Part shown: positions 31,229-49,980 of the stretch, piece after piece
Layout of the letters: the number at the start of each line of letters is the position of its first letter
Numbering within the stretch: position 1 is the first letter of the stretch
NCBI GenBank assembly: GCA_965216755.1
Contig: CBDCGL010000011.1
Span: 2,528,001 to 2,592,000, forward strand
Direction of reading: 5' to 3'
DNA from: Alphaproteobacteria bacterium
GTDB lineage: Bacteria; Pseudomonadota; Alphaproteobacteria; UBA7887
DNA: 64,000 nt
Notes under the pieces: model-generated
What the model saw: only the letters and a program-made list of their open reading frames with translations
Database searches by the model: none
What the model was told of the DNA's origin: nothing
Program-made: the position numbers and the translations under genes

Positions 31229-31966
31229 CTAAGTCGCGGGACCGATCCTCAGTAGATCGAGGGTAGGATAGCGGTCGACCAACCGCCGTGCCACGTAAGT
31301 GTTCAAACCACGATGCGCCCATTGGGCATTGGCTGCGAGCAGAATGAACCGGTCTTCGACCATGCGATCGATCGCCCTGCGGTCGTCTTCGGCGTGGTAT
31401 TCAACATAGATCAGGTCCAGGCCATCGGGGAGCGGCGCGAGGTCGTTCAATATGGCCATTTCAGCCCCTTCGGTATCGATCTTCACGACCGCAGACTCTG
31501 CCTGACGCAGAAACGATAGCACCTGACCAGCGCGCTCTAGATTCACTGATTCGATGGTGTCACCGGTCTCGGCGCTCTTAAATAAAGAGTTCTGCATCGT
31601 ATGGCTGGAGCCGCCGTGCAGGCATCCGTGGCCATTGCGATCCGCCAATCCGATGGGATGGCATTCGACATTTTCCAAGCCGGCCACATTGCGCAGCAAG
31701 AGATCGAAATTCGCTGCCGAAGGCTCGTATGCGACGACTCGAGACTTCGGATAGGCCATGGCGAAGAACACGCTGGCGGCGCCAATATTGGCGCCGATGT
31801 CGACGATCACCTCCGGCGAGTAGCCGACCAGACGCAGTGGCGGGTATTCGCGGCCCTGAAATATTGCCGCCAAATGATCGGTGATGTTGCCGCCGGGCGG
31901 ATAGACGAATGGCCGCCCGACACCATTTTGTTTCAGCCGCAGGCTGGCAAGGCGCCGCGCGCCCAT
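31229..31966 (-). CDS. FkbM family methyltransferase
   Basis: IVDIGANIG, VAYEP, VKIDTEGAE and IYVEYH. Confidence 0.88.
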   Translation of the reverse strand: MGARRLASLRLKQNGVGRPFVYPPGGNITDHLAAIFQGREYPPLRLVGYSPEVIVDIGANIGAASVFFAMAYPKSRVVAYEPSAANFDLLLRNVAGLENVECHPIGLADRNGHGCLHGGSSHTMQNSLFKSAETGDTIESVNLERAGQVLSFLRQAESAVVKIDTEGAEMAILNDLAPLPDGLDLIYVEYHAEDDRRAIDRMVEDRFILLAANAQWAHRGLNTYVARRLVDRYPTLDLLRIGPAT

Positions 31967-32119
31967 GACACCTAATTCCTTGTCGTTTGAATGGCGTGGA
32001 TCGATCCGATCCGCCCCCAATACCGCATTACAGATGTATGGCGATCTGGTGATCCGGCCACCCGAAACATCTCAACATATTGCTAATACATAATAATTTG
32101 TGTTTTCCGCTGAATTTGC

Positions 32120-33259
32120 TCAGGCCGATGCGGCGCCTCTCTCTCGTTGGTTCGACCAGGCGATCCGACCGGCGAGCTCGCGGCTCAGATTGAGCAAGAC
32201 CTTGGCCGCAATCTCTGGTTCGGCTCGTATGAAGCGCTCCAAGAAATCGCCCGACAGCACCAGCGCCTCGCCTTCGGTTTGCGCGATGACGTTGGCGGTT
32301 CTTGGCACCGCGGTTAAAAACGCGATTTCGCCGAAAGTATCGCCAGCGCCGTAGACCGCCAATGGTGGCCCGTCATCATCGCCCAGTCTCACCTCAGCAA
32401 GGCCCTTCAGCAAAACATACACCGTATTGTCACGTTCGCCTTGCCGGATTAGCCGATCGCCGGGTCGCACATTCATGATCGTCGCCTTATCCAGGAAACG
32501 CGCCGCTTCGTCCTGGGTCAGACCACGCAGTAGGGCAACGGCATGCAGCGGATCATGAGCAACCCGTTCGGCGAGCAAATCAAAAAACACGTCCTCGCCA
32601 ATCAGACCAGCGCTCTGCAACTTGACATAGTCTGGATAGGTGCGCTCGAACCAAGCCCGCGCGGGTGGGTCGATCCGGTGTTCGGGCAAGACCGTGGCCA
32701 AGGGCGAACGGACAGTCTTGAAATAGCCAAGGTCGCCAATCAGCATCAAAATCGGCACTTTGTAGCCAAATGCCGTGTCGTTATAGCCGCGCGTGTAACG
32801 GCGGTAGCCGAGCTGCTCATAGAAGGGCAGCAAGTGTGGGCTGCAGTCGCCGAAATTAGTTCGAATGCCGCGCGCGAGAGCGGTCAGAAACGCTTCGCGC
32901 ACCAGCTGAAAGATCGCCATTGAATTGCGCTTATGCGGCGCAATGATAAATCGACTAGAGGTCACGACGGCGCTGGCTCCGAATTCGGCCATGGCCGGAC
33001 CCATTTCAAACGCATTGATCAGCGGCGCCGGATCGCGGACGTGATCCATCAGGATCAGACGCAGCGAGCCAACCACGTCGTCGCCCTCGAAAACCGCAAA
33101 CGACAACGACTGGTCGTCATATTGGTCGCGAAGCCAACGGTTTTCGTGGTCGGCCTGCGCCGTCAAGCCCAGCTCTTCCACATAGACCTGATAGCGAAAC
33201 CGATAAATAGCCTCGCGTTCGGCCTCGGACTCGACAACACGAACGACGGTCTTCGCCAT
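32120..33259 (-). CDS. N-acyltransferase (LuxI/FeeM-like GNAT fold) fused to a C-terminal cyclic nucleotide-binding domain
   Basis: AIYRFRYQVYVEELG, DQYD, VGSLRL, SSRF and FYEQLGY; cNMP phosphate-binding cassette GDTFGEIAFLTAVPRTANV. Confidence 0.8.
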   Translation of the reverse strand: MAKTVVRVVESEAEREAIYRFRYQVYVEELGLTAQADHENRWLRDQYDDQSLSFAVFEGDDVVGSLRLILMDHVRDPAPLINAFEMGPAMAEFGASAVVTSSRFIIAPHKRNSMAIFQLVREAFLTALARGIRTNFGDCSPHLLPFYEQLGYRRYTRGYNDTAFGYKVPILMLIGDLGYFKTVRSPLATVLPEHRIDPPARAWFERTYPDYVKLQSAGLIGEDVFFDLLAERVAHDPLHAVALLRGLTQDEAARFLDKATIMNVRPGDRLIRQGERDNTVYVLLKGLAEVRLGDDDGPPLAVYGAGDTFGEIAFLTAVPRTANVIAQTEGEALVLSGDFLERFIRAEPEIAAKVLLNLSRELAGRIAWSNQRERGAASA

Positions 33260-33900
33260 TACGGCCTCTGGGTCGCTTCACGCAGCATGCGCGGGTAGAT
33301 ATCCGCCATCACATCCGCAACATGATGCACGTCGGCCAAGTCCTGGCCCACAATGTGCGCCTCGATCTGCTCAATAATGTCCTTGGTGTGGTCTTGATCG
33401 GCTTCACCATGACCAGCCAAAAAACGAACCCCATCGGGCAACGCCAGTCCTTTGCCGACTTGTTCGGCGATCAAATGACCCAAGTCCTCACCCATCGCTT
33501 CCAGTACGAACAACCAACCAAACAGTCCGACCGGATTGGCATAGGTCGCGGTGTAATACTCGTATCCGATCATGGCCGCGCAGGCCGGCACGGGCCGGGT
33601 CGCGGCGACATCGTCACGTGAGACACCCAGCGCCGCCAAGTCACCGAGAGCCCACTCATCGTGCCCAAGTTCCTCGCGGGCATGGTGAAGCAGGTAATCC
33701 GCGACCGGTGGATTGCGCCCGACCGCGCGCGCGCCGGCGATGCCGATCACGATGGCGCTGTGCTGGGCGTAGTGCCAGACATTGGTCAGATAGCGCACAT
33801 AGACATCGCGGTCCGCCTTGCCTGCAATCAGGTCTTGGACAGCGCCGATTTGTACAATGTCGTCGCGCACCGCTCGGCGAAGTTGCGCCAAATACTCCAT
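33259..33900 (-). CDS. Heme-oxygenase-like diiron oxidase (HDO; CADD/PqqC/TenA superfamily)
   Basis: Ligand pattern HAREELGH ... VLEAMG ... HGEADQDH (H-x3-D-x2-H); stop overlaps the start of the next gene. Confidence 0.78.
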   Translation of the reverse strand: MEYLAQLRRAVRDDIVQIGAVQDLIAGKADRDVYVRYLTNVWHYAQHSAIVIGIAGARAVGRNPPVADYLLHHAREELGHDEWALGDLAALGVSRDDVAATRPVPACAAMIGYEYYTATYANPVGLFGWLFVLEAMGEDLGHLIAEQVGKGLALPDGVRFLAGHGEADQDHTKDIIEQIEAHIVGQDLADVHHVADVMADIYPRMLREATQRP

Positions 33901-34031
33901 AAGACAAGCTCTTATCTCTGTGGCGCTGTTTGCCCAAGACATGCGCCCAAACACCAATTTTGGCGGAAATCTTAGCCGCCCGCACCGACATTGAGCAAAT
34001 GCCAGCTTGACCGCGCACGCAAGCGCGGCCG

Positions 34032-36074
34032 CTAGGCGCCAGTCGCGAGATTGTAGCTCCCATCCCAGTCCGAGGGCGGCGGATTTGCTGCGCGTTCCGC
34101 GGCACGCCGTGTCATGACCTGAGAGGGCCCGTCAATTTCTGCCAAAGCGCGCCACGCGCTTGCGGCACGCGCGAAATCGCCGGTCCGATAGATGTTGAGC
34201 GCGTTTTCATAGGCCGCCACGGTATGCCGCTGGGCGGCGGTCGCAGTCTCGTTATCGGCGATAATCTCAAATATCGTCAAGGGCGCGTCGATTCCCTTTA
34301 CCCGTACATGATCCAATTCACGCAACAAGAAATGATCGCGTATGGCGTCGGCCGTCGGCGCCCCGGCAACGACATTGCATCGATACAAGCCGGGCAGCGC
34401 TTCCAGCCGCGCCGCGACATTGACCATGGCGCCGATGGCCGTGTAGTTGAATCGCTTCTCATAACCGACATTGCCAACAATGGCATCGCCAGAGTGGATC
34501 GCGACTTTGATGCTGAAAGCATGTTCGCCGGCACGCTTGTCGCGTTCCTGCGTCACGGCCACTTGTTCGGTGATGCGCAGGGCCGCCGCCGCCGCGTCCA
34601 TGGCATGGTCGGCGTTCGGCAGCGGCGCGCCCCAAATCGCCATGACTGCGTCGCCGATGAACTTGTCGACATAGCCGTTCGCGCGATCGACTTCGCGGGC
34701 GACGATGCCGATATAGCGGTTGGTCAGTGCGACCAATTGGCTCGCCGGTATCCGCCGCGACAGTGCGGTGAATCCCGACAGATCGGCAAACATCACGGTC
34801 AAATCATGGTTCGCGCCCCCGAGCGTCAATGGCGTACCGCTATCGGCCAAGCGCGCGACCAAGACCGGCGAAAGATAGCGCCCGAAAGCCTGTTGCACGC
34901 GCCGGCGACGCCGATCTTCGAGCAAATAGCGGATCAAATAGGCGAGCGCCAGAGCGGCGGCAACCGCTATCATCGGGACCCCGGCCGGGAACCATATCTG
35001 CCAATCCAAAAGGACGATTTCACCCAGCCACAATCCGGCCAACGCCACCAGTCCGGCGGCGACCGCAAGCCACGGTACAAGCGTAAGACCAATGGTCGCA
35101 CCAATTGCCCCGGCCGCCGCGCCAATAGCGGCCCGCCATAGCGGCGCGATCAGTTCTGTGACGCGGCCGCGCAACACGGTATCGACGGCAACGGCATGCA
35201 AAAAAACGCCGGGCACGGCCGTACTGGCAAATCCCGGTCGCCAAGCACGCTGAGTGTCCCCATTGGATCGCGGCAAGAAACGGGCTGACGTGATCTTCTG
35301 GTCTTCCTCGGGCAGAGCACCACCGACAAAGACCACCTTGCCGGCAAATGCGTTGCGCAAGGTCTCGGGCGCCGACCGGCCCAACTGAAGAACATCGATC
35401 AGCGGAAAAGTCGGCAGTGATTCCGGGTGAAGATCGGGCGCGAGCAAGACCGGTGTCCGCCAGCGGTCATGTCCCAGGCGCGCCAACACCGCCCCCATGA
35501 GCGAGGCATACCAGTGCTCTTGCACTTCGAATCCTGCCGGTACCCAACGATAGACGCCGTCGTCGTCGGGCCGGACTTCGAGCAAGCCAAGCGCCGCCGG
35601 ATCGTTGCGCAAGGCCGCAATAAAGGGCGCTGCCGGGTTGGTCCGCACCGAACGGCCGAGGACCAAACGGTCCTTGTTCCGCGCCAACGCGGCGACAAAA
35701 TCGCGGTCAGCGTCGCGCTGGAAGGCGTTGCGCGAATAGGCGAGCAACATATCGAAGGCGACAACACGTGCGCCCGCATCGATCAATGTCGTAATCAGTT
35801 GCGCCCAATAGATTCCATAGAACGCACGCGGCCAGCGCGCCATTTCCGGATGTTCCAACGTGGTCGAATCGACAACCACGATCGCGACATCACTCTGCGA
35901 CCGATCTGCGCGTGCGGCACCGGTGGCGCTGTGCACAGCCAACGCGGTATCGAATAGCCAGCCGTCGACGACGGTCAAACCTTCAGATGTCAATGCGGCA
36001 AGGCCGGCAAGGCCCGCACAAAGAACCACGCTCGCGCGTATCACATATTTTCGGATGTTAGCGACCGGCCGCAC
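34032..36074 (-). CDS. CHASE2-domain membrane adenylate cyclase (class III)
   Basis: CHASE2 motifs RWPRAFY, VVAFDML, GKVVFVG and PGVFLHA; three TM helices; cyclase motifs VMFADLSGFT, DKFIGDAVM and YTAIGAMVNVAARLE. Confidence 0.92.
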   Translation of the reverse strand: MRPVANIRKYVIRASVVLCAGLAGLAALTSEGLTVVDGWLFDTALAVHSATGAARADRSQSDVAIVVVDSTTLEHPEMARWPRAFYGIYWAQLITTLIDAGARVVAFDMLLAYSRNAFQRDADRDFVAALARNKDRLVLGRSVRTNPAAPFIAALRNDPAALGLLEVRPDDDGVYRWVPAGFEVQEHWYASLMGAVLARLGHDRWRTPVLLAPDLHPESLPTFPLIDVLQLGRSAPETLRNAFAGKVVFVGGALPEEDQKITSARFLPRSNGDTQRAWRPGFASTAVPGVFLHAVAVDTVLRGRVTELIAPLWRAAIGAAAGAIGATIGLTLVPWLAVAAGLVALAGLWLGEIVLLDWQIWFPAGVPMIAVAAALALAYLIRYLLEDRRRRRVQQAFGRYLSPVLVARLADSGTPLTLGGANHDLTVMFADLSGFTALSRRIPASQLVALTNRYIGIVAREVDRANGYVDKFIGDAVMAIWGAPLPNADHAMDAAAAALRITEQVAVTQERDKRAGEHAFSIKVAIHSGDAIVGNVGYEKRFNYTAIGAMVNVAARLEALPGLYRCNVVAGAPTADAIRDHFLLRELDHVRVKGIDAPLTIFEIIADNETATAAQRHTVAAYENALNIYRTGDFARAASAWRALAEIDGPSQVMTRRAAERAANPPPSDWDGSYNLATGA

Positions 36075-36117: not shown

Positions 36118-36774
36118 TCAATCAATCCGGATCAATGTCATGGCCTTGCCCCGCGCCCGGGTCAAGACATCCAAATCGACCCGTCCCACACTTTCGCCGG
36201 ACATGGCCAAGAGTTCCAAAGTCAACGTGGCGTCGTCGCCGAGCTCTTCAATATCTTGCGGCCATGTGAACCGGCGGTCTTCGACCGCGCCTTCATAGAT
36301 AACGCGATCATCACGCAGCACGCGTGCCTGCGCCACGGCGCCGCCCTTGGATCCGGCCATGACCAACGTCGAAGCGCTGCCAAGGCGGACCTTCACAGCA
36401 TTGCCCAAATCGCGGACCAACACCCCGCCGATCCCCGTGCCTTCGGACAACGCGATGGTTTGCGGACAATCTGCGCGTCGAACATCGACAATTTGACCCT
36501 GCTGCACGGTGTAACTCTGCGCGCTGAAATGGAGGCGCCCGCCCGTGACCACGACTTCCTTGCAAGTTGGATAATGGAGAAACTCGACCGTACCCGCATC
36601 CGCCAGCTCAACGGCATCGCCTGGCCACAGTTCCGAGAACGGTTCGACCTCGGCGCCACTGGTCGCGTCCAATGCCAAGGCGACGGCCGAGTCGGCGTGG
36701 GCGCGCAATGTCGGCGCCACGACAACACAGAGGCTGGCCAATAACAACAAGCGCGTCATGCGGTAGCACGTCAT
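36118..36774 (-). CDS. Hypothetical exported protein, co-oriented directly upstream of the cyclase
   Basis: Signal peptide ending AHA-D; two Cys in the mature region; beta-rich; start may be 36759. Confidence 0.7.
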   Translation of the reverse strand: MTCYRMTRLLLLASLCVVVAPTLRAHADSAVALALDATSGAEVEPFSELWPGDAVELADAGTVEFLHYPTCKEVVVTGGRLHFSAQSYTVQQGQIVDVRRADCPQTIALSEGTGIGGVLVRDLGNAVKVRLGSASTLVMAGSKGGAVAQARVLRDDRVIYEGAVEDRRFTWPQDIEELGDDATLTLELLAMSGESVGRVDLDVLTRARGKAMTLIRID

Positions 36775-36905: not shown

Positions 36906-37091
36906 TCAGGCGTACAACTCGTCAATCTCCACGGCCGCGCCGCAATGGCGCCGGCGGTGTACCTCTTTAAGGACATCGCTGAGCATGTCCGACACGGCGT
37001 GAAGTTGGTCTTCATCACCTGTATCCAACGCCCAATCCATCAGCGTGGCCTGCGCGTCGTCAAGCATATCAAGCGCATAAGTTTGCATCAT
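36906..37091 (-). CDS. Small acidic hypothetical protein
   Basis: AGGGG RBS before ATGATG; helical, Asp-rich composition. Confidence 0.45.
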   Translation of the reverse strand: MMQTYALDMLDDAQATLMDWALDTGDEDQLHAVSDMLSDVLKEVHRRRHCGAAVEIDELYA

Positions 37092-37300
37092 TCGTCCCCT
37101 GGTGTTGGATGTTTCAATCTCGTGCATCAATGTTGATGCTCACCCATAGACACGATGGACGCGCCGACCAGGGGTTACGAATTGCGACAAACCGCGCGCC
37201 GTAGGCGCGAAAACGCCATCGGCGGCGTCGATAGACGCCGCCGTGACGTTGATGGGCCGGGGGAGGTTTTGGTAGCGGTCGTGTGCCGCTCGATCGGCGC

Positions 37301-38283: not shown

Positions 38284-38417
38284 TGTAACCTCCTGCATGT
38301 CCCGGGGATTTGCGGCTTTGCGTGGGGTCGTCGTTGGCACCGCTTCTGCCTATAGACACGTAGAAAGCACAGGATAAGGGTTGCCAAAAATGTGCTGCGG
38401 GATGCGGATAAAAAGAT

Positions 38418-38442
38418 CCGGTGTGTGGAAACCACACACCGG
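38418..38442 (-). terminator. Probable rho-independent terminator of 38495-38683
   Basis: Perfect 11-bp stem CCGGTGTGTGG / CCACACACCGG followed by ATCTTTTT on the minus strand. Confidence 0.55.
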
Positions 38443-41329: not shown

Positions 41330-44300
41330 ATGACGGCACCGGCACCCAAGACCGGGCTTGGTGCCCGCCTTTCGTGGATTCTCCGCCACGACTGGCTGTT
41401 TGTTCCCGCCATGATTGTGACCCTGTATGGCGGTTATCTGTCGGTCACGGCGCCGCCCAATTGGCTGCAGCGTGTACCTGTCGCGGTCGATGATGTGGTC
41501 ACTGGCGCCCGACAGGACTTGACCGCGACCGTCGATGAACTTCAAGTGGCCAGCAACGAAGCGCGCCGCCTGTTTGACGATGCCAGCGCTGAATTCGCGC
41601 AGGAACGGGAGTCGCTGCAAGACGCGGTCGCATCGCGCGACACCGAAATCGACGCGCTCAACGAGTCCTTGGACGAGACGCGCGAGGCACTCGATCAACG
41701 CACCCAAACCTTGAATGAACGCGACGCGCGTTTGGCCGAATCGCGCGACTCGGTCGCCGCCTTGGAACAAGAAGCCACCGCAATCGCAAGCGAACGCGAC
41801 GACCTGCGTACGGCGCTGGATTTTGCCGAATCCGACCTGGCGCGCGCGCAGGACCGGGTTGCCGCTTTGCAGGCCGCGTTGGCCGAACGCGCCGCGTCCG
41901 TCGAATCGCTGACCAGCGAGGCCGCCAATGCCAGCACACAAACCGATGCCCTGCGCGACTCTCTGACCGGCGCGCAACGAGACCTTGACGCTGCCGAGCA
42001 ACGCGTCGTGGCCTTAGAGGAAGCTCTGGCCGATCGTGAGGCCAGCGTCACGCGACTCGAAGAACAGTTGACCGCGACAGCGGCCGAACGTCGCGAACTG
42101 GAAAGTGCACTGAGCGCCGCACAACAGGACGTCGCGGCGGCACGCGACCAAGCGGCTGTCTCAGACGCCCGAGTCGCGGAACAAGCCGCAGAAATCACCG
42201 CGGACCAGCAAGAGATCACCAGGCTCAACACGGCTTTGACGACCGCACGCGCGCAAACTGCCGCGACGGAACAGCAAATGGTCGAGGTGAACAGCGGTTT
42301 GGACGCTTTGCGCAACGAACGCGCGGCCTTGGCCGCGTCTGTCGACAGCCAAAGACAGCGCATCGCGACATTGACGTCAACGCTGGCCGACGCCGAAACC
42401 CAGCTCGGTCAAAGTGCCGCCCAGTTGGCGGCGCGCGACGCCACGATCGAGCAACTCAACCAGCAAATCAGATCCGCCCAATCGGCCTCCGACAGCCTGC
42501 GTGAAACGCTGTCCGACGTGACCACGGCCAGCGGCGAGACCCAAGGCCAAATCGCCACGCTCGGCGCCACGCTGGCGCAAACCCGGGCCGAACGGACCGC
42601 ATTGGCCACGGAGGTCGCGGCACAGCAAGCGCAAATCGAAACGCTCAATGCGGCGCTGGGAGACGCCCGAACTGCGTTGGAAAGCGGCACCGCGACGTTG
42701 GCCGAACGCGAAGCGGCGGTGGCGTCGTTGGAAGAGCAAATCGCGGCCGCGACGGCGGAACGGGCCCGTTTGGTCGCGTCGGTGCAAGAAGCCGAAGCGG
42801 CCGCTGCCGACGCGCGGGCACAGACGTCAGATCTTGAAGCCCGTTTGCAAGAACAGGCTGCCGCGATTGCCACGCAGGAACAACAGGTCACGATATTGCG
42901 CACCGACCTTGATGCCGCGCGCGAGGCGGCGACGGCCGCAACGGCCGATGCCGCTGCGCTGGCCACCGATCGCGACGCGTTGGTCGCGGAACGTGACCAA
43001 TTGGCCGAGGCGCGGACAGCCGAAGCCGACCGCATCACGACGCTGACAGCGTCACTGGCGGCGGCCCAAGCGGCACACGACGACACCCTCGCCACGCTTG
43101 CCGAACGGGAGGCGGCCGCCGAAATCGTCACAAGCCAGGTCGCCGAGGCCGCGCAACAACGCGCGCAATTGCAAGCCGCCCTGGCCGATGCGGAACAAGC
43201 GGCGGCCGCGGCGAGCAGGCGCGCGGCCGCGCTGGAGCAGCAAGTGCGCGATCAGGCCGGCGCCGACGCAGACGCGTCGCAGATCGCCGATTTGACAATC
43301 CGTCTGCGCGACGTGGAAAACGAACGCGATGCGGCGTTGGCATCCTTGGCCGAGGCGGAAGAAGGCGCCGCGGCCGCAACCAATCGCGTGGCCGAACTGC
43401 AGCGCCAAGCCCAAAATCAGGCCGCTGCCGATGCGTCAGAGATCGCTGACCTGGACGCCCGCCTGCAAGAGGTCGAAGACGCGCGCGAAGCCCTTTCCAC
43501 CGAATTGACCGAGCAACAGGCGATGGCGACATCGCTGACCGCGGCGCGTGAGACCGCCGAGGCAGCGCTCGTTGAGGCCAATCGTGAGACCGCGGAATTG
43601 ACCGAACGGCTGCAAGGCATTGACTCCGAACGTGCGACCTTGGCGGCGAACGTAACGTCCCAGCAACAGGAAATGGCGGCTTTGTCCGCGTCACTCGCCA
43701 ACGCCAAAGCGGACTTTGACGGGCAAACCATCGATTTGGCGGAACGCGACGAAACCATCGCGAAATTGACGGCCCGAGTGACCGACGCCGAAGCCGAGAC
43801 CGAACGCCTGTCGGCCGCGGTGGCCGATGGCCGCACCGCCCTGGCGGACAGGGAAACCGACTTGGCGGACGCCCGACGACAAGCCGACGCCGAGCGCGCC
43901 GAATTGGAGCAACTCGGCGACCGCTTGCGCCAATCGGAACGCGAATTGGCACGGCGCACCCGGCTGGCCGGAGCTTTGCAATCGGAAGTCATGCGCCTGA
44001 TGGGAGCCCTTGGCGCATCCCAGAAAGCCGCCGGCACCGGCGATGCGGAGTCGGGCACGGGGCCTGGACAGGCAGCGGCATCCGGTGGCGCCGGATCCGA
44101 CATCGGCAAATATCGGTCGGCGTTCTTCGCGTTGCTCAGCGCGGTGGTTGGTACACGCAGCGATGTGCGCACGGTCGGCGATCGTTTTGTGTTTCCGTCA
44201 GAGGTCTTCTTTCCATCGGGTTCGGCGATCCTTGGCCCCGAAGGCCGCGCGGAATTGGACAAGGTCGCCGATGCGCTATTGGAAATTGCACGCAACATTC

Positions 44301-44557
44301 CGCCGGAAACATCGTGGGTGTTGCGGGTCGACGGTCATACCGACCGGCGCCCCATTCAGACCTCGGAATTTCCGTCGAATTGGGAGCTGTCGACAGCCCG
44401 GGCGCTGTCTGTGGTGCGCTATTTGATCGAACGCGGGATCCCGCCCGACCGCTTGGCCGCGTCGGGATTCGGCGAGTTTCACCCAATCGATCCTGGCCAG
44501 TCCGGAGACGCCTTTCGCCGCAATCGGCGTATAGAACTAAAACTCACCACACGCTGA
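41330..44557 (+). CDS. Single-TM giant coiled-coil protein with a C-terminal OmpA/MotB-like peptidoglycan-binding domain
   Basis: TM near aa 22-40; ~830 aa of Ala/Glu/Gln-rich heptads; GDRFVFPSEVFF, VDGHTD, NWELSTARA and NRRIELK. Confidence 0.88.
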   Translation: MTAPAPKTGLGARLSWILRHDWLFVPAMIVTLYGGYLSVTAPPNWLQRVPVAVDDVVTGARQDLTATVDELQVASNEARRLFDDASAEFAQERESLQDAVASRDTEIDALNESLDETREALDQRTQTLNERDARLAESRDSVAALEQEATAIASERDDLRTALDFAESDLARAQDRVAALQAALAERAASVESLTSEAANASTQTDALRDSLTGAQRDLDAAEQRVVALEEALADREASVTRLEEQLTATAAERRELESALSAAQQDVAAARDQAAVSDARVAEQAAEITADQQEITRLNTALTTARAQTAATEQQMVEVNSGLDALRNERAALAASVDSQRQRIATLTSTLADAETQLGQSAAQLAARDATIEQLNQQIRSAQSASDSLRETLSDVTTASGETQGQIATLGATLAQTRAERTALATEVAAQQAQIETLNAALGDARTALESGTATLAEREAAVASLEEQIAAATAERARLVASVQEAEAAAADARAQTSDLEARLQEQAAAIATQEQQVTILRTDLDAAREAATAATADAAALATDRDALVAERDQLAEARTAEADRITTLTASLAAAQAAHDDTLATLAEREAAAEIVTSQVAEAAQQRAQLQAALADAEQAAAAASRRAAALEQQVRDQAGADADASQIADLTIRLRDVENERDAALASLAEAEEGAAAATNRVAELQRQAQNQAAADASEIADLDARLQEVEDAREALSTELTEQQAMATSLTAARETAEAALVEANRETAELTERLQGIDSERATLAANVTSQQQEMAALSASLANAKADFDGQTIDLAERDETIAKLTARVTDAEAETERLSAAVADGRTALADRETDLADARRQADAERAELEQLGDRLRQSERELARRTRLAGALQSEVMRLMGALGASQKAAGTGDAESGTGPGQAAASGGAGSDIGKYRSAFFALLSAVVGTRSDVRTVGDRFVFPSEVFFPSGSAILGPEGRAELDKVADALLEIARNIPPETSWVLRVDGHTDRRPIQTSEFPSNWELSTARALSVVRYLIERGIPPDRLAASGFGEFHPIDPGQSGDAFRRNRRIELKLTTR

Positions 44558-44571
44558 TCAATAACGGCACC

Positions 44572-44669: not shown

Positions 44670-45275
44670 TCAGCCGCCGAGATTGATGATCTTGACCCGT
44701 CGATTGGCCCCTGAGGCCGGATCGGCACTGTCATACAGCTCCGATTCGCCTTTGCCGACCGTCACCAGGCGGACATGGTCGACAGCGTGCCGTGAGATCA
44801 GATAATTCTGAACCGACAGCGCGCGTTTTTCGGACAAGCTCTGGTTGTAGCTGTCAGAGCCCACGGCGTCCGTGTGGCCTTCGATCACAAACTTAAACGC
44901 ACCGAGATCGTCAGAATTGAGCGCCGCGGCCAAGTTATCCAGCGTGGCCATGCCATCCGGCGTCAACTCCGCAGAGTCGAACCCGAACTCGATCCGCACC
45001 GAGGCGGCGGGACTCAATTGCTCGGGTTGAGCCTGTGTCGCCGCTGTTTGCGGCATCGTTTCCGGATCGGCGTTCGGATCCGGTCGACGTTGAATGCCAC
45101 GCGTGCGGAACATTGGCTGCGGCTTGAGCGCTTGGATGAAATCATCAACGCTGGCGCCATCTTCCAAATAAGCGCTGGCGTCATCAGCTAAGACACCCTG
45201 ATTTGGGCCAAAAACAGCGACGAGCGCCGCGGTCACGGCCACCACGGTTAAACTGCGCATTACGTTCATCGTCAC
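44670..45275 (-). CDS. Exported OmpA-family (C-terminal domain) protein
   Basis: Signal peptide; IEFGFDSAEL, IEGHTDAVG, YNQSLSEKRA and NRRVKI. Confidence 0.9.
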   Translation of the reverse strand: MTMNVMRSLTVVAVTAALVAVFGPNQGVLADDASAYLEDGASVDDFIQALKPQPMFRTRGIQRRPDPNADPETMPQTAATQAQPEQLSPAASVRIEFGFDSAELTPDGMATLDNLAAALNSDDLGAFKFVIEGHTDAVGSDSYNQSLSEKRALSVQNYLISRHAVDHVRLVTVGKGESELYDSADPASGANRRVKIINLGG

Positions 45276-45520: not shown

Positions 45521-46507
45521 ATGAAGCGCATCGCATTCATTACTGGCTTGCTGCTCTATGCGGCGCCGGCGCTAGCCGACGTGTCGGAAGCGCTGACGGC
45601 GTATCGGCGCGGCGACTACGCGACGGCGATCACCGAATTCACCGTGGCCGCGCAAGCCGGCGATCCTGTTGCACAGTTCAATTTGGCTGTGATTCACCAT
45701 AAGGGCGTCGGCACGTCGCCGGACCCGGCATTGGCCAGCGAATGGTACCGGGCCGCCGGTCTGCAGGGCTTGCAGCAAGCCCAGATTGAATTAGGTCGCA
45801 TGTATGCCACCGGCGCAGGCGCCTTTTGGAACGCCGAAGCCGCCGAGATCTGGTACCGTGCGGCGGCAAAACATGGTGACTCAACCGCGCAGTACCAACT
45901 TGGCGAGATGTACTACAGAGGCGACGGGGTTCAGAAGGACGGCGCCGAAGCCGCCAACTGGTTGCGCTTGGCCGTTGAGCAAAACCATGTGCGCGCGCAA
46001 TTCCTTTTGGGATACCTGCACGCTGCCGGAGTCGGCGTCGCGCAAAGCGATGAATTGGCGGCGAAGTATTATCGCATGGCCGCCGAGGCGGGATATCCGC
46101 CGGCGCAGTTGAATTTGGCCTTCATGTATTCCCATGGCAAGGGCGTGCCGCGCGATTTCAACGAAGCCACGAAATGGAATCGGCGCGCCGCGCGGCAAGG
46201 TTATGCCGGCGCGCAAGGCATTGATATTATTGAACGCAGCAATGTGGACGGGGTGCCACAGAGCTTCGTGGATGCCTATGCGTGGTGGCACATGGCCGCG
46301 GTCCACGGCAACCCCTTAGGGACCAGCTATCGCGACACCCTAAATACGCTGCTAACGCCCGAGGAAGTAACCGAAGCGATCGCTCTGTTTGACCAACTGA
46401 TGAGCGAAGCCAAGGTCGCCGGCAGCAGTCGGGCGACACCGCCCCGCGAGCGTTCGAACATGGTCAACAACCGGCCTGATTTGGCCATTCAAACGTCGGC
46501 AAAATAA
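45521..46507 (+). CDS. Exported Sel1-repeat protein
   Basis: Signal peptide ending ALA-D; about five AQxxLGxxYxxGxGV repeats. Confidence 0.9.
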   Translation: MKRIAFITGLLLYAAPALADVSEALTAYRRGDYATAITEFTVAAQAGDPVAQFNLAVIHHKGVGTSPDPALASEWYRAAGLQGLQQAQIELGRMYATGAGAFWNAEAAEIWYRAAAKHGDSTAQYQLGEMYYRGDGVQKDGAEAANWLRLAVEQNHVRAQFLLGYLHAAGVGVAQSDELAAKYYRMAAEAGYPPAQLNLAFMYSHGKGVPRDFNEATKWNRRAARQGYAGAQGIDIIERSNVDGVPQSFVDAYAWWHMAAVHGNPLGTSYRDTLNTLLTPEEVTEAIALFDQLMSEAKVAGSSRATPPRERSNMVNNRPDLAIQTSAK

Positions 46508-46821
46508 TCGTCGGCGATCACAAATTCGTCACCCCTCCTCCGTCACCGCCACGTGTCTACCGTTAGCAGGTTCTGCGTCTCCCGTGTCGCGCCCCGCGGT
46601 TTGGGTTCGATCTGCCGGCAACAATGCCGCGCAATCAATCCGTTGCCGCGCCACGTGCGCGTGCGCGCAGACCAGATCGACATGCCGCGCCGGACCCGTG
46701 CCGGAACATGGCAGTCGACATAATGAAGCAGGAAAGGAACGACGGGACGTGGCATGATGATTTCGCGAGCGTTAGGATTATTGCCCGCTGGTCGATGCCG
46801 CACATTGATTTGGAGGAAGCC

Positions 46822-49800
46822 ATGACTGTCGAAGCCTATGAGACGCATCCGCGTCGGTTTGGACCGCGTCGGTTTGCGACTTTGTCGGCACGCTGGGGTC
46901 TGTTCGCGGCCCTTTGCCTTGCGATGCCGGGTCTGGTTGTATCGGCGACCAGCAGCCCACATGGAGACTGGTTTATCCGGCCGGCAGCCGCCGCGACCAA
47001 CGTCGCCGATAAGTTCACCGTGGTCGATTGCGTACTGCCCGGGCAAGTGCGCAAGTTGGGTCGCCGGACAACCTATTTGACCGCCCGTCGGGCCACCAAA
47101 ACGTCGATCTTGGACTGCGAAATCCGTGGCGGCGAGTATGTCGCCTATGACCGTGCTTCGTATCAGACGGCCCTGAATGTATGGATGGACGAGGCCGGCG
47201 CGGGCGATCCGCAAGCCCAGCTTTACGTTGGCGAGATCTACGAGAAAGGCCTCGGCGTGGCGCCCGATTACGACCTCGCCGCGGTCTGGTACAAAAAGGC
47301 GGCCGAACAAGGCCTGGCGCCGGCTCAAGTCAATCTCGGCAATCTCTATGAAAAAGGTCTCGGCGTGCCCAAGGATCCGGACACTGCCCTGGCGTGGTAT
47401 CGCCGCGCGTCCGGATTACCGGATGTCGGCCTCGACTATATGCCGTTTGGTGACTTTGCTCAGCAGGTCGAAGGGTTGCGCCAAGAACTGGCGTCACGCA
47501 CCGAACAGCTAGAGCTGCGCACAGAGGAATTGGCGCAACGGACCCAGGAGGTCGAGCAGTTGCGAGGGTCCCTGGGTCAAGCGCAGCGCAGCCTGCATGA
47601 AACGACCCGTCAGTTATCGGCAAGCCAAAAAGCCGCCAGTGCCAAGCAAGCCGAATTGGCCGCGGAGCAGCAAGCCCTAGCCGCGGAACGCGCCGCCCTG
47701 ACCGCCTCGACCGAAGCCGTGAAGACCGAACGCGCCCGCCTGGAAGCGGCGCTGCAGAACGCCGGCGGTACCGACCCGGCGGAACTGCAAGCCTTGCAAG
47801 CGCGGCTTCAAGAGAGCGAACAAAACGTCGCGAAGCACCGCCAAGCCCTTGAAATCCGCAACCAACAAGTGACCCAGCTGAACAGCGAAGTCACCCAACG
47901 GAACCAAGAAATTGCCGCGTTGCAGACGGTCGCGGACAGCAAGGACGCGGAGTTCGCCGCGCTCAAACAAGAGCTCAGTGAGGGCAGCTCAGGCGCCGTT
48001 GCGTTGCGCCAACAGCTGGACCGTCGTGAGGCTGAACTGAAACAACTGACCGCCAAGCTCAGCGGCACCCAAACCGAACTGGAGACCACCAAGAACGCGT
48101 TGGCCGCGCGTACGTCCGAGGCCACCGCCCAGCGGCAACAGTTGGACAGTGTGCGCAGCGAACTTGAGGCGCAACAAAAAGCGCTCGACGCACTCAAAGC
48201 CCAGCAAGACGGTTTGGTCGACAAAGAAGAAGCCGACTCGGCCCGCAACACTTTACAAATGCAACTGCAAGACCGCGCCGATGCCTATATCCAAGCGGAG
48301 GCCGAGGTCGCCCGGCTCAACAGCGCCCTTGCCGACAGCCAGGGCGAGGTGGCGCAACTGCAAAACCAAGTCAACCAACTCGCGGTGCAAGCGACCAACC
48401 AGCGCGAGCAATTGGCCTCCGCGGAACTGGCGGTAGAATCCTCGTCGGCCACCGAAGACGCACTCAAGCAAGAGGTTGAGCGACGCGCCGCCGAGGTCGG
48501 AAGCCTGAACCAGCAATTGGCGGAACTTGCCGACACGTTGCAGCAGAAGTCCGCGCAACTGGCACGACGGGAAGCCGATTCGGAACTTGCCAGCAATCAG
48601 TTGGCCGCCGCGCAACAGGAGCTATCGGATACACGCACGGCGCTCGAAGCGCTGCAATCGGATACCACCGCCAATACGGCCGACTTGAACCAGCGGATCC
48701 AAGCATTGACCGCGCAATACCAAGCGGGACAGGAGAAAGCCGCGCAGCTCGACGCCGAGTTGGCGGATAGTCGCTCGGAGATCGGCCGCCTTGAGTCGCA
48801 ATTGGCCAACCTCGAGGTCACCGCCAATAGCCAGGAACAGGAACTGGTCACGGCAGAGCAGCAGTTTGTTGACGCCGGCCCGATCATCGAACTGATCGAC
48901 CCGGCATTGCTGGTCACGCCCGAAGGGCGCACCATCGCGCGTACGCGCGGCGGCATCGAAAGTCGCGTGCTCATCGGGCGGGTCACCGCACCATCTGGCC
49001 TGTTGACCCTGACCATCAACGACGTCGAACAGCAGTTCGACGAGCAAGGCCTGTTTCGGGCCAGCTTGCCGGTCATCGGCGCCACCACCGGCGTCACGAT
49101 TAGCGCGGTCGATAGCAACGGCTATCGCAGCGCGTTGGACTTCTCTCTTGAGCTCGACGGCTCTGGCGAGATTGCCGCGCCGCCAACACCAGAGGTCAAG
49201 ACCCCCAGTCAACCGCCGCTGGTGCCGATTGCCGATGTCAAGTTCGGCAATTACTACGCGCTGGTCATCGGTAGCAACGACTACGCGCACCTGCCTGATC
49301 TGGAGACCGCGATTACCGACGCCCGCGCCGTTTCGCAGGTGTTGCGGGACAAGTACGGCTTTATCGTGACCACGCTGGAAAACGCAACCCGTTACGACAT
49401 TCTGTCGGCGATGAACGAATTCCGCGAGACGCTAACGGAAGAAGACAACTTCCTGCTCTATTACGCGGGTCATGGTGAGCTCGACCGCGTCAATCAACGC
49501 GGCCACTGGCTGCCCATCGATGCCGAGCCGGACAGCACCGCCAATTGGATCTCCAACGTGGCGATCGCCGACATCCTCAACGCGATGAACGCCAAGCATG
49601 TCTTGGTGGTGGCGGATTCGTGCTATTCCGGCGCCCTGACACGCACCGCTTTGGCGCGCCTCAACACCGGCATGACGCAAGAGCAACTGACCCAGTGGCT
49701 CAAGGTGATGGTGCAAAAACGCGCCCGTCTGGCGTTGACGTCGGGTGGCTTGCAGCCTGTCTATGACAGCTTCGGCGGCGATCATTCGGTATTCGCTAAC

Positions 49801-49980
49801 GCGATCTTGGGCGTATTGAATGACAATGGCGAAGTGTTGGGCGGTCAGCGTTTGTTTGAAGAGGTCGCGGCGCGAGTCAATTTCGTCGCCCAGTCATACG
49901 GCCTTGAACAATTGCCGCAATATTCGCCGATCCGGTTTGCCGGCCATGAATCCGGCGACTTCTTTTTCGTGCCGCTCTAA
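46822..49980 (+). CDS. Exported Sel1 + coiled-coil + caspase-family (peptidase C14) protein
   Basis: GGAGG RBS; N-terminal hydrophobic segment; two Sel1 repeats; ~470-aa coiled coil; ALVIGSNDY and catalytic dyad YAGHG / ADSCYSG. Confidence 0.9.
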   Translation: MTVEAYETHPRRFGPRRFATLSARWGLFAALCLAMPGLVVSATSSPHGDWFIRPAAAATNVADKFTVVDCVLPGQVRKLGRRTTYLTARRATKTSILDCEIRGGEYVAYDRASYQTALNVWMDEAGAGDPQAQLYVGEIYEKGLGVAPDYDLAAVWYKKAAEQGLAPAQVNLGNLYEKGLGVPKDPDTALAWYRRASGLPDVGLDYMPFGDFAQQVEGLRQELASRTEQLELRTEELAQRTQEVEQLRGSLGQAQRSLHETTRQLSASQKAASAKQAELAAEQQALAAERAALTASTEAVKTERARLEAALQNAGGTDPAELQALQARLQESEQNVAKHRQALEIRNQQVTQLNSEVTQRNQEIAALQTVADSKDAEFAALKQELSEGSSGAVALRQQLDRREAELKQLTAKLSGTQTELETTKNALAARTSEATAQRQQLDSVRSELEAQQKALDALKAQQDGLVDKEEADSARNTLQMQLQDRADAYIQAEAEVARLNSALADSQGEVAQLQNQVNQLAVQATNQREQLASAELAVESSSATEDALKQEVERRAAEVGSLNQQLAELADTLQQKSAQLARREADSELASNQLAAAQQELSDTRTALEALQSDTTANTADLNQRIQALTAQYQAGQEKAAQLDAELADSRSEIGRLESQLANLEVTANSQEQELVTAEQQFVDAGPIIELIDPALLVTPEGRTIARTRGGIESRVLIGRVTAPSGLLTLTINDVEQQFDEQGLFRASLPVIGATTGVTISAVDSNGYRSALDFSLELDGSGEIAAPPTPEVKTPSQPPLVPIADVKFGNYYALVIGSNDYAHLPDLETAITDARAVSQVLRDKYGFIVTTLENATRYDILSAMNEFRETLTEEDNFLLYYAGHGELDRVNQRGHWLPIDAEPDSTANWISNVAIADILNAMNAKHVLVVADSCYSGALTRTALARLNTGMTQEQLTQWLKVMVQKRARLALTSGGLQPVYDSFGGDHSVFANAILGVLNDNGEVLGGQRLFEEVAARVNFVAQSYGLEQLPQYSPIRFAGHESGDFFFVPL

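What the first reader, a model, noticed from the sequence alone, without database searches (positions are those of the whole stretch)
31229..49980. Candidate undescribed system: ~19 kb island coupling exported caspase/Sel1/OmpA proteins and a membrane AAA+ ATPase to a cAMP-gated biosynthetic output
Seen: between housekeeping regions lies a block where nearly every gene is an envelope, signalling or unknown protein. It holds a CHASE2 cyclase, 5 small hypothetical proteins (4 exported), 3 Sel1 proteins, 2 OmpA-domain proteins, a TM-anchored Clp ATPase, an intact caspase, and an HDO / acyltransferase-cNMP / FkbM trio. It is bounded by a REPIN-like palindrome on the left and by a terminator plus a pseudogene on the right. 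Established: CHASE2 is an extracytoplasmic sensor, C14 proteases use a His-Cys dyad, and cNMP domains give allosteric control. Inference: periplasmic proteolysis generates a signal sensed by CHASE2, and cAMP then switches on synthesis of an acylated small molecule (envelope stress, cell contact or anti-predator/phage response). I know no named system with this full composition.
Basis: partly seen in the sequence, partly recalled or inferred. Interest (0 to 1): 0.8.

Follow-up and report, generated by a model that had tools for sequence, protein, structure and literature searches.

The report
Neighbouring envelope and cAMP-gated biosynthesis gene units
The 19 kb block really holds the genes described, but it looks like at least two separate units, a sensor-cyclase operon that probably switches on synthesis of a lipid-like molecule through cAMP and a set of cell-envelope proteins with an exported caspase, and not one coupled system.

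Summary
The left palindrome and right terminator are real. The 'REPIN' and 'pseudogene' labels could not be verified.

The one-system claim found no support. The non-self relatives of the AAA+ ATPase, the CHASE2 cyclase and the FeeM-cNMP acyltransferase (117, 119 and 119 contig lengths; 27, 52 and 40 of at least 10 kb) share no contig of 10 kb or more. This test is indirect. The one genome-context scan was swamped by ClpB.

Best reading, two units:
- **Unit A (31229-36774, minus strand):** exported protein, CHASE2 adenylate cyclase, HDO, FeeM synthase with a cNMP domain, FkbM methyltransferase. FeeM-cNMP is a conserved fusion (51-63% identity, several phyla) with an invariant nucleotide-binding cassette. 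FeeM+HDO fusions occur elsewhere.
- **Unit B (38759-49980):** Sel1-DUF4384, membrane ClpB-NBD2-like ATPase, coiled-coil OmpA protein, OmpA protein, Sel1 protein and an exported Sel1-coiled-coil caspase. Its function is unknown.

No PADLOC system matched beyond single domains. Verdict: new variant of known kinds, moderate interest.

The parts
31091..31218 (.). Perfect 52-nt inverted repeat with a 24-nt spacer, lying between the convergent oxidoreductase and FkbM genes. It marks the left edge of the block.
   Evidence: Its two arms are the only copies in the window. No plasmid match.
31229..32020 (-). FkbM-family SAM methyltransferase. The likely start is Met19 (about 31966), which has a Shine-Dalgarno-like motif upstream.
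32120..33259 (-). FeeM-type N-acyl synthase (residues about 1-190) fused to a C-terminal cyclic-nucleotide-binding domain (about 245-365).
33259..33957 (-). Heme-oxygenase-like (HDO, 'iron-containing redox enzyme') protein. Its stop overlaps the FeeM start by 1 nt.
34032..36074 (-). CHASE2 receptor adenylate cyclase: a TM segment, the periplasmic CHASE2 domain, a hydrophobic block read as three TM segments, then a class III cyclase domain.
36118..36774 (-). Exported 218-aa protein of no known family, 44 nt upstream of the cyclase. Candidate periplasmic co-sensor.
36906..37130 (-). 74-aa acidic ORF without a signal peptide. Gene status uncertain (GC3 0.65).
37301..37630 (-). 109-aa ORF with a lipoprotein-like N-terminus. 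Gene status uncertain.
37906..38340 (-). Exported small protein. The likely start is Met20 (about 38283), which has GGAGG upstream. Orphan-like.
38418..38442 (-). Strong terminator-like hairpin (11 pairs, 8 of them G-C) with a T-run, just downstream of the 62-aa ORF.
38495..38683 (-). 62-aa ORF with a signal-peptide-like N-terminus, divergent from the Sel1-DUF4384 operon.
38759..40126 (+). Exported Sel1-repeat plus DUF4384 protein. Its stop overlaps the ATPase start by 4 nt.
40123..41313 (+). Membrane-anchored single-ring AAA+ ATPase resembling ClpB NBD2. Motifs found: Walker A at residue 134, Walker B at 203, pore-loop GFAG at 181, sensor motifs at 250 and 347.
41330..44557 (+). N-terminal membrane anchor, about 840 aa of proline-free coiled coil, and a C-terminal OmpA/MotB-type peptidoglycan-binding domain resembling PRK09039.
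44670..45275 (-). Exported 201-aa OmpA-domain protein.
45521..46507 (+). Exported protein with five Sel1 repeats.
46624..49980 (+). Exported or membrane-anchored Sel1, coiled-coil and C14 caspase protein with an intact His-Cys dyad. The likely start is Met67 (46822), which has GGAGG upstream.
50006..50033 (+). Terminator hairpin with a T-run after the caspase gene. It marks the right edge of the block.

Best explanation
The block is a stretch of ordinary chromosome that holds at least two functional units side by side. It is not one coupled system.

**Unit A (31229-36774, minus strand, probably one operon).**
1. An extracytoplasmic cue reaches the periplasmic CHASE2 domain of the receptor cyclase, possibly through the exported 218-aa protein encoded just upstream.
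2. The class III cyclase domain makes cAMP.
3. cAMP binds the C-terminal cyclic-nucleotide-binding domain of the FeeM-type N-acyl synthase and changes its activity.
4. FeeM, its translationally coupled HDO partner and the FkbM methyltransferase make an oxidised, methylated N-acyl amino-acid-like lipid.

Shown: the domain identities, intact catalytic and ligand-binding motifs, tight gene spacing, wide conservation of the FeeM-cNMP fusion, and FeeM+HDO fusions in other organisms.

Inferred: cAMP as the ligand, the direction of control, co-transcription, the product, and that this particular cyclase feeds this particular cNMP domain.

**Unit B (38759-49980).** This is a set of extracytoplasmic, peptidoglycan-associated proteins:
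- a translationally coupled operon of Sel1-DUF4384, a membrane-anchored ClpB-NBD2-like unfoldase and an inner-membrane-anchored coiled-coil OmpA protein;
- a small OmpA protein and a Sel1 protein;
- an exported caspase carried on a Sel1 and coiled-coil stalk.

The most likely role is envelope-located, scaffolded proteolysis or remodelling of envelope proteins. That the ATPase operon and the caspase work together is an inference. It rests on shared Sel1 modules, on DUF4384 being a known accessory domain of orthocaspases, and on both large proteins having an anchor followed by a long coiled coil.
For: **Domains and motifs:**

**Operon structure.** The gaps in Unit A are 44, 75, -1 and about 100 nt, and the scan lists no terminator-like site in them. 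The ATPase start overlaps the Sel1-DUF4384 stop by 4 nt, and the coiled-coil OmpA gene starts 17 nt after the ATPase gene.

**FeeM-cNMP family.** 301 hits; the 119 best non-self hits are 51-63% identical. Source names span Alpha-, Gamma- and Deltaproteobacteria, Burkholderiales, Acidobacteria and Binatia. The phosphate-binding cassette is invariant in 30 of 30 aligned sequences. The AlphaFold model has pLDDT 84, and its top Foldseek hits are cyclic-nucleotide-binding domains.

**FeeM-HDO link.** Of 22 HDO relatives scanned, 4 are FeeM+HDO fusions, 7 are AMP-ligase+HDO fusions and 1 is an enoyl-CoA hydratase+HDO fusion. The FeeM half of fusion P0484 aligns to residues 6-191 of the window protein at E = 9e-15. 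In 3 of 3 plasmid contexts of distant HDOs, the neighbours are an acyl-AMP ligase, an SDR and a gene annotated 'thermostable hemolysin'.

**Separation of the units.** No contig of 10 kb or more is shared among relatives of the ATPase (27 such contigs), the cyclase (52) and FeeM-cNMP (40).

**Precedent.** The CHASE2 cyclases of Sinorhizobium meliloti sense a protein signal and act through a cNMP-binding regulator (PMC13001267, passages read). Sel1 occurs in 6% of prokaryotic metacaspases and OmpA in 14 metacaspase operons (PMC3501461, passages read). DUF4384 accompanies orthocaspases (PMC7475262, passages read).
Against: The co-occurrence test is indirect. It compares contig lengths among only the 120 best hits of each list, and it has no positive control other than the window's own contig. 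It also failed to link the cyclase with FeeM-cNMP elsewhere: the only shared lengths are 3647 and 3822 bp, against 0.5 expected by chance, and both contigs are too short to hold the cyclase, HDO and FeeM together. This weakens the claimed cyclase-to-FeeM wiring.

No orthologous neighbourhood could be read at all. The single genome scan returned only ClpB-like loci, and the plasmid collection holds no orthologues.

The Arg-Thr-Ala residues in the binding cassette do not tell cAMP from cGMP, and the best solved matches of the cNMP domain are cGMP-dependent kinases.

Three Sel1 and two OmpA genes within 11 kb argue that Unit B is a related set. That clustering could not be tested against a whole-genome background.

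The small ORFs between the units have low GC3 (0.60-0.66), and some may not be genes.
Confidence: 0.55

Rival explanations
1. One reading: the whole 19 kb is one circuit. The exported caspase, helped by the ATPase and the Sel1/OmpA proteins, cleaves an envelope protein. The fragment is sensed by CHASE2, and cAMP then turns on the biosynthetic trio.
For: All parts are adjacent and nearly all are extracytoplasmic or signalling proteins. CHASE2 cyclases of S. meliloti respond to a signal of protein nature (PMC13001267, passages read). A metacaspase-CHASE2 fusion has been reported in Trichodesmium (PMC3501461, passages read).
Against: No contig of 10 kb or more is shared between relatives of the ATPase and of the cyclase or FeeM-cNMP. 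The units are divergently transcribed and are separated by about 2 kb of small, poorly supported ORFs and a strong terminator. In the reported Trichodesmium fusion the caspase is placed in the cytoplasm, not the periplasm. The caspase's own relatives were never searched for context.
Confidence: 0.07
2. All adjacency is incidental. FeeM-cNMP, with HDO and FkbM, reads the cell's general cyclic-nucleotide pool. The CHASE2 cyclase serves other targets. The envelope genes are unrelated neighbours.
For: FeeM-cNMP relatives (40 contigs of 10 kb or more) share no contig with close relatives of this cyclase (52 such contigs). The FeeM-cNMP family is far better conserved (51-63% identity) than the cyclase, whose best non-self hit is 50% identical. 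This suggests different evolutionary histories.
Against: The gap is only 75 nt, on the same strand, and the scan lists no terminator-like site between the cyclase and HDO genes. A cyclase next to a cNMP-domain protein is a functionally matched pair. Three Sel1 and two OmpA genes within 11 kb are unlikely to be unrelated; this is an inference that was not tested against the genome.
Confidence: 0.25
3. An anti-phage defence locus: either a Pycsar-like pair (cyclase plus cNMP-domain effector) or a caspase-based abortive-infection module.
For: PADLOC HMMs match at the level of single domains: PycC on the cyclase domain (E = 7e-30), PycTIR on the cNMP domain (E = 8.5e-18), PDC-M37B and DolB on the ATPase core, 'caspase' on the C14 domain, and ZorB on the OmpA domains.
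Against: Each match covers one generic domain only. No second component of any PADLOC system matched. The cyclase has an extracytoplasmic CHASE2 sensor and residues typical of adenylate cyclases. The effector would be a biosynthetic enzyme. The caspase is exported. The block has native composition and carries no mobile-element genes.
Confidence: 0.05

Closest known systems
Sinorhizobium meliloti CHASE2 adenylate cyclases CyaD1/CyaD2/CyaK with the cNMP-binding regulator Clr
   Same: An alphaproteobacterial CHASE2 receptor cyclase whose cAMP is read by a cyclic-nucleotide-binding-domain protein. The signal there is a protein (PMC13001267, passages read). One S. meliloti CHASE2-cyclase match has an extracytoplasmic-type neighbour, a FecR-domain protein.
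   Different: Here the cNMP domain is fused to a biosynthetic enzyme, not to a DNA-binding domain. The neighbouring exported protein shows no sequence similarity to the FecR-domain protein. Identity to the S. meliloti cyclase match is only about 33%.
FeeM and other long-chain N-acyl amino acid synthases
   Same: The N-terminal 190 residues match PF21926 FeeM above its gathering score, and also match Acetyltransf_5.
   Different: The C-terminal cNMP domain is extra. The scores against exosortase-associated acyltransferase, OlsB and AHL-synthase models fall far below their cut-offs. No paper in the library holds both 'N-acyl amino acid synthase' and 'cyclic nucleotide-binding'.
Mycobacterial Pat, a cAMP-regulated GNAT protein acetyltransferase (recalled from my own knowledge; NCBIfam NF058543)
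   Same: A cyclic-nucleotide-binding domain fused to an acyl-transfer enzyme, so cAMP acts as a direct allosteric switch.
   Different: The domain order is reversed, and the catalytic domain is FeeM/LuxI-like, not a protein acetyltransferase. The NCBIfam match covers only the cNMP part (35.5 bits against a cut-off of 460).
Operon 'thermostable hemolysin' - AMP-binding - HDO - SDR on Variovorax, Pantoea and Vibrio plasmids
   Same: A distant HDO relative (29-32% identity) sits in an acyl-handling operon in 3 of 3 contexts read.
   Different: Those operons have no cNMP domain, no cyclase and no FkbM. The window has no acyl-AMP ligase or SDR.
Sel1- or DUF4384-bearing prokaryotic metacaspases/orthocaspases
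   Same: C14 domain with a His-Cys dyad. Sel1 is among the commonest fused repeats and OmpA is a recurrent operon neighbour (PMC3501461). DUF4384 is an orthocaspase accessory domain (PMC7475262).
   Different: Here DUF4384 lies on a separate protein next to an AAA+ ATPase. The caspase sits behind a signal or anchor segment and about 470 aa of coiled coil.
ClpB/Hsp104 second nucleotide-binding domain; human CLPB (Skd3)
   Same: Best solved match is Thermus ClpB NBD2 (4lj4, E = 5e-33). Walker, sensor and aromatic pore-loop motifs are present. Chains named 'Caseinolytic peptidase B protein homolog' also match, at E = 7e-23 to 2e-18. That this protein is a single-ring NBD2 ATPase is recalled from my own knowledge.
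   Different: It has two to four N-terminal membrane helices and no NBD1. No match to the ClpB/ClpA/TssH models extends beyond the NBD2 region, and all score far below their cut-offs (140 against 1232 bits for ClpB).
MotA/TolQ/ExbB plus PRK09039 peptidoglycan-binding protein pair of S. meliloti
   Same: The C-terminal 150 aa of the coiled-coil OmpA protein are 57% identical to the S. meliloti PRK09039-type protein. That protein directly follows its energiser gene, with a Sel1 gene two genes upstream.
   Different: In the window the preceding gene is a membrane AAA+ ATPase, not a proton channel. The coiled coil is about 700 aa longer. The score is 259 bits against a cut-off of 305.

Membership tests
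CHASE2 class III adenylate cyclase | CHASE2 domain flanked by TM segments, plus a class III cyclase domain with metal-binding Asp residues and a substrate-specifying Lys | tested here: met
   Both Pfam domains score above their gathering scores. TM segments are at residues 11-29 and 315-381. The motifs FADLSGFT, DKFIGDAVM and YTAIGAMVNVAARLE align with the solved adenylate cyclases CyaB and CyaC. Reading Lys/Thr as ATP-specific is from my own knowledge.
FeeM-type N-acyl amino acid synthase | Match to PF21926 above its cut-off | tested here: met
   44.7 bits against a cut-off of 27.
FeeM-type N-acyl amino acid synthase | N-acylation of an amino acid from acyl-ACP | not testable with these tools
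   Needs a biochemical assay.
Cyclic-nucleotide-binding domain proteins | Phosphate-binding cassette FGE...R(S/T)A | tested here: met
   FGEIAFL at residue 309 and PRTANV at residue 319. The cassette is invariant in 30 of 30 family members. The Foldseek top hits are cyclic-nucleotide-binding domains.
Heme-oxygenase-like diiron enzymes (PF14518) | Family match and His/carboxylate ligand motifs | tested here: met
   63.2 bits against a cut-off of 28.9. The solved structure 3dde matches at E = 1e-23. ExxH- and DxxH-type motifs occur at residues 96, 158 and 187. Metal content was not tested.
Pycsar anti-phage system | A pyrimidine cyclase next to a cNMP-domain effector that kills or arrests the cell (TIR or TM) | tested here: not met
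   Only domain-level HMM matches were found. The cyclase is a membrane CHASE2 receptor resembling adenylate cyclases. The cNMP protein carries a biosynthetic domain. The nucleotide made was not testable.
ClpB/ClpA/ClpV (TssH) Hsp100 ATPases | Two AAA+ modules in one chain and a score above the family cut-off | tested here: not met
   The protein has 396 aa. Only the NBD2 region of each model matches (model positions 559-829 of 853 for ClpB). Scores are 140, 121 and 134 bits against cut-offs of 1232, 993 and 885.
Caspase family C14 (orthocaspase/metacaspase) | p20-like domain with a catalytic His-Cys dyad | tested here: met
   PF00656 scores 91.8 bits. YYAGHG is at residue 946 and DSCYSG at residue 998. 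The His motif aligns with YYAGHG of MALT1.
PRK09039 peptidoglycan-binding protein with a MotA/TolQ/ExbB partner | Score above the NCBIfam cut-off and an adjacent proton-channel gene | tested here: not met
   259 bits against a cut-off of 305. No MotA/TolQ/ExbB match was found among the proteins scanned in the window. S. meliloti has the pair.
Type VI secretion (TssH, TssL) | Core T6SS genes | tested here: not met
   The TssH and TssL models match only generic domains and score below their cut-offs. No other T6SS family was found in the window.
REPIN | Many genomic copies of a paired REP sequence and a RAYT transposase | not testable with these tools
   One copy in 64 kb. The rest of the genome is not available.

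The most novel reading that the evidence does not exclude
The block is one envelope-surveillance circuit. A membrane AAA+ unfoldase and peptidoglycan-anchored coiled-coil and Sel1 scaffolds control an exported caspase. The caspase's cleavage product is read by the CHASE2 cyclase, and the resulting cAMP directly switches on an enzyme (FeeM-cNMP with HDO and FkbM) that makes a lipid signal or toxin.

A weaker and more likely version (about 0.35) is that only Unit A is such a device: a one-operon 'sense outside, make a small molecule' module built on a widespread, undescribed class of cAMP-gated biosynthetic enzyme.
Probability: 0.07. Interest if true: 0.8.

Novelty: new variant of a known kind. 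Interest (0 to 1): 0.4.

Why it matters
If cAMP directly gates a FeeM-type synthase, this would be a case of second-messenger control of small-molecule biosynthesis at the enzyme level, not through transcription. The fusion family is conserved across several phyla, and none of my six literature searches turned up a description of it.

The ATPase operon defines a clade of membrane-anchored, single-ring ClpB-like unfoldases of unknown role. The gene sits where S. meliloti has a proton-channel energiser in front of a related peptidoglycan-binding protein.

For the scan itself, the result is a caution. A dense run of envelope and signalling genes is not by itself a system.

Tried and rejected
**Genome-context scan.** It was seeded with an alignment of 25 ATPase relatives. 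The patterns it chose included the Walker A motif, so all 80 loci kept are ClpB-type (29-39% identity).

**Plasmid tblastn searches.**
- ATPase: 2297 records, all below 60% identity and none covering 80% of the query. The best hit, in Microvirga, has an unrelated context.
- Sel1-DUF4384: 2 Azospirillum records. The one read lies in a flagellar region.
- FeeM-cNMP: every listed match covers the cNMP part only.
- Cyclase and caspase domain: no orthologous context. The contexts read for Azospirillum, Phaeobacter and Ensifer were uninformative.
- 218-aa protein: no match.

**Other attempts.**
HDO representatives therefore could not be tied to contigs.
- AlphaFold on the 218-aa protein alone gave pLDDT 48.6, which is unusable.
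- The Atlas placed the 218-aa protein among unnamed Pseudomonadota clusters and gave nothing for the 144-aa ORF.
- BLASTP of the 218-aa protein against the S. meliloti FecR-domain neighbour found no similarity.
- The coiled coils of the two large proteins are only compositionally alike, at 26-28% identity.
- No Rfam family matched in 30-52 kb, and no tandem repeats were found.
- Crp-like sites are not enriched: 13 found against 18.6 expected.

**Complex prediction (caspase domain with the DUF4384 region).** The queue was full each time and the job never ran, so this question stays open.

**Not available or not seen.** Supplementary tables of the metacaspase papers were not seen; they may list Sel1/OmpA/AAA operon neighbours.

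Full report
**1. What is there**

Pfam and NCBIfam give the following on the minus strand:
- an FkbM methyltransferase (31229-32020);
- a FeeM-type N-acyl synthase fused to a cyclic-nucleotide-binding domain (32120-33259);
- a heme-oxygenase-like 'iron-containing redox enzyme', here called HDO (33259-33957);
- a CHASE2 class III cyclase (34032-36074);
- an exported 218-aa protein without a family (36118-36774).

Four small ORFs follow on the same strand. Three look exported. Their GC3 is only 0.60-0.66, against 0.67-0.76 for the recognised genes, so some may not be genes.

On the plus strand lie Sel1-DUF4384 (38759-40126), a membrane-anchored AAA_2 ATPase (40123-41313) and a 1075-aa protein made of a membrane anchor, a coiled coil and an OmpA domain (41330-44557). 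Then come an OmpA protein on the minus strand (44670-45275), a Sel1 protein (45521-46507) and a Sel1, coiled-coil and caspase protein (46624-49980). The caspase gene's likely true start is Met67, which has GGAGG upstream.

Key residues are intact:
- the caspase YYAGHG and DSCYSG motifs;
- the ATPase Walker A and B motifs, sensor motifs and an aromatic pore loop (GFAG; the family consensus is GYAG);
- the cyclase metal-binding and substrate motifs, which align with solved adenylate cyclases;
- the phosphate-binding cassette of the cNMP domain.

**2. Boundaries and origin**

A perfect 52-nt inverted repeat with a 24-nt spacer lies at 31091-31218. It folds at -91 kcal/mol, z = -18.7. Apart from its own two arms it has no further copy in the window and no plasmid match. 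'REPIN-like' therefore stays a guess.

A hairpin followed by a T-run lies at 50006-50033, after the caspase gene.

I could not confirm a pseudogene to the right. ORFs at 50.1-51.3 kb match no family, and ORF 50685-51203 has no plasmid match.

The flanks are ordinary metabolism: a peptide ABC transporter, an M1 peptidase, biotin-synthesis-type enzymes and dehydrogenases on the left, and glycine-cleavage genes on the right. No integrase, transposase or tRNA gene was seen. GC3 and the dinucleotide signature are native, except over the Ala/Glu/Gln-rich coiled-coil gene. This is not a recognisable mobile island.

**3. Does it recur as a unit?**

My single genome-contig scan was wasted. The patterns drawn from the ATPase alignment included the Walker A motif, and all 80 loci returned are ClpB-type. 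Plasmid searches found no orthologues of any component.

I therefore used an indirect test. The search for homologous proteins reports the length of the longest contig that carries each hit, and that length serves as a fingerprint of the contig.
- I compared the non-self hits for the ATPase (117 with a contig length), the cyclase (119) and FeeM-cNMP (119).
- 27, 52 and 40 of these contigs are 10 kb or longer.
- None of those lengths is shared between any two lists. The window's own contig length, 4,853,305 bp, heads all three hit lists.
- Lengths shared below 4 kb were 1, 6 and 2, against about 0.5, 1.6 and 0.5 expected by chance. Most of these contigs are too short to hold both genes.

The closest ATPase relative (68% identity, on a 50,398-bp contig) therefore has no close cyclase or FeeM-cNMP relative on that contig.

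Limits of the test:
- only the top 120 hits of each list are visible;
- the position of a gene within its contig is unknown;
- there is no positive control;
- The listing of cluster members, which would have extended the test, was switched off;
- the caspase's relatives were never searched.

**4. Unit A**

The FeeM-cNMP fusion is a conserved family. It has 301 hits, and the best 119 non-self hits are 51-63% identical. Source names include Alpha-, Gamma- and Deltaproteobacteria, Burkholderiales, Acidobacteria and Binatia.

In an alignment of 30 members, cassette residues F309, G310, E311, R320 and A322 are invariant, as are many FeeM-domain residues. The model built on that alignment is confident (pLDDT 84.1, pTM 0.75). 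Its best structural matches are cyclic-nucleotide-binding domains.

The HDO has 1335 representative hits, 21 of them at E <= 1e-30, and the best full-length hits are 40-48% identical. I scanned 22 of them with Pfam. These were 20 of the 25 listed hits longer than 340 aa, plus two hits of 282-291 aa. Five long hits (P0475, P0476, P0480, P0483, P0493) were left out. The result:
- 4 are FeeM+HDO fusions;
- 7 are AMP-binding+HDO fusions;
- 2 have only the C-terminal piece of an AMP-binding enzyme plus HDO;
- 1 is an enoyl-CoA hydratase+HDO fusion;
- 8 show HDO alone.

The FeeM half of fusion P0484 aligns with residues 6-191 of the window protein at E = 9e-15.

Distant HDOs on Variovorax, Pantoea and Vibrio plasmids all sit in an operon of 'thermostable hemolysin', AMP-binding protein, HDO and SDR (3 of 3 contexts read).

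FeeM and HDO are therefore a functional pair that works on acyl substrates. FkbM's membership rests only on its position, about 100 nt downstream.

The cyclase lies 75 nt upstream on the same strand, and the scan lists no terminator-like site in that gap. The functional match between a cyclase and a cNMP domain is the argument for coupling. The contig test gives no support for that coupling elsewhere. I put the coupling in this genome at roughly 0.4-0.5.

The nearest studied analogue is the S. meliloti pathway from CHASE2 cyclases to cAMP to Clr, which senses a protein signal (PMC13001267, passages read). One S. meliloti CHASE2-cyclase match has a FecR-domain neighbour. The window's 218-aa protein occupies a similar position but shows no sequence similarity to it.

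**5. Unit B**

The ATPase is not ClpB, ClpA or ClpV. It has 396 aa. Only the NBD2 region of those models matches, and it scores far below their cut-offs. The best solved match is Thermus ClpB NBD2. It has two N-terminal hydrophobic segments, and longer relatives have more of them.

Its family is distinct: 38-68% identity among the 25 aligned members, with source names Geminicoccaceae, Alphaproteobacteria and Azospirillum.

The start of the ATPase gene overlaps the stop of the Sel1-DUF4384 gene by 4 nt, and the coiled-coil OmpA gene follows 17 nt after it. All the other Unit B proteins have signal or anchor segments.

The C-terminus of the coiled-coil OmpA protein resembles PRK09039 proteins (259 bits against a cut-off of 305). 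In S. meliloti such a protein, 57% identical over 150 aa, directly follows a MotA/TolQ/ExbB gene, with a Sel1 gene two genes upstream. In the window that position is held by the AAA+ ATPase. This is suggestive but untested.

The link between the ATPase operon and the caspase is inferred from three points:
- three Sel1 proteins lie within 11 kb, while none was found in the rest of the window;
- DUF4384 is an orthocaspase accessory domain (PMC7475262, passages read);
- both large proteins have the same layout of an anchor followed by a long coiled coil, although their similarity is only compositional.

Sel1-caspase fusions and OmpA neighbours are already known features of prokaryotic metacaspases (PMC3501461, passages read).

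**6. Known systems**

PADLOC HMMs match only generic domains: PycC, PycTIR, PDC-M37B, DolB, ZorB and 'caspase'. No second component of any of these systems matched. No T6SS set is present.

Literature searches found no description of a cNMP-gated N-acyl synthase or of this gene combination. These searches cover only the held open-access library.

**7. Verdict**

The single-system interpretation is not supported, although its cAMP-to-acyltransferase step is reasonable.

Novelty lies in two under-described pieces: the FeeM-cNMP/HDO cassette and the membrane NBD2-type ATPase operon. Both are new variants of known kinds.

Noticed in passing
window 31091-31218: A 128-nt element made of a perfect 52-nt inverted repeat around a 24-nt AT-rich spacer, lying between two convergent genes. 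No T-run follows it. Apart from its own two arms it has no further copy in the window, and it is absent from the plasmid collection. It could be a MITE-like insertion or a bidirectional transcription block.
   Followed up: partly
L087 (S. meliloti record CP090106.1) 4814-9453: A PRK09039-type peptidoglycan-binding protein directly follows a MotA/TolQ/ExbB gene, and a Sel1 gene lies two genes upstream. In the window, a membrane AAA+ ATPase occupies the energiser position in front of the related coiled-coil OmpA protein.
   Followed up: partly
L084, L085, L086 (Variovorax, Pantoea and Vibrio plasmids): A conserved four-gene operon of 'thermostable hemolysin', AMP-binding protein, iron-containing redox enzyme (HDO) and SDR. 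It looks like an uncharacterised acyl-metabolite cassette related to the window's HDO.
   Followed up: no
L083 (Azospirillum ramasamyi plasmid) 5399-10705: A 1768-aa protein annotated as a 'filamentous hemagglutinin N-terminal domain' protein ends in a caspase domain 38% identical to the window's. Four Azospirillum plasmids carry this. It suggests that this caspase clade is used as a secreted domain.
   Followed up: no
window 41330-44557: About 840 residues of coiled coil contain no proline (26% Ala) and lie between an inner-membrane anchor and an OmpA domain. As one continuous coiled coil this would be far longer than the periplasm is wide (my own estimate). It must therefore fold back or lie along the wall.
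   Followed up: no
window 50050-51350: About 1.3 kb to the right of the terminator has no recognisable gene. ORF 50685-51203 has native-like GC3 (0.70), but no Pfam match above noise and no plasmid match.
   Followed up: partly
P0288 and P0324 (relatives of the FeeM-cNMP protein): Two relatives of about 550 aa carry an extra DinB_2/DinB domain, according to the precomputed Pfam column.
   Followed up: no
window 9287-10930 (-): A CYTH-CHAD protein (triphosphate-tunnel enzyme family) lies 20 kb to the left of the block. No link to the cAMP unit is evident.
   Followed up: no
window 38418-38442 (-): This is the top-listed terminator-like hairpin of the scanned stretch. It sits just after the 62-aa ORF and so isolates that ORF from the rest of the minus-strand genes.
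   Followed up: no
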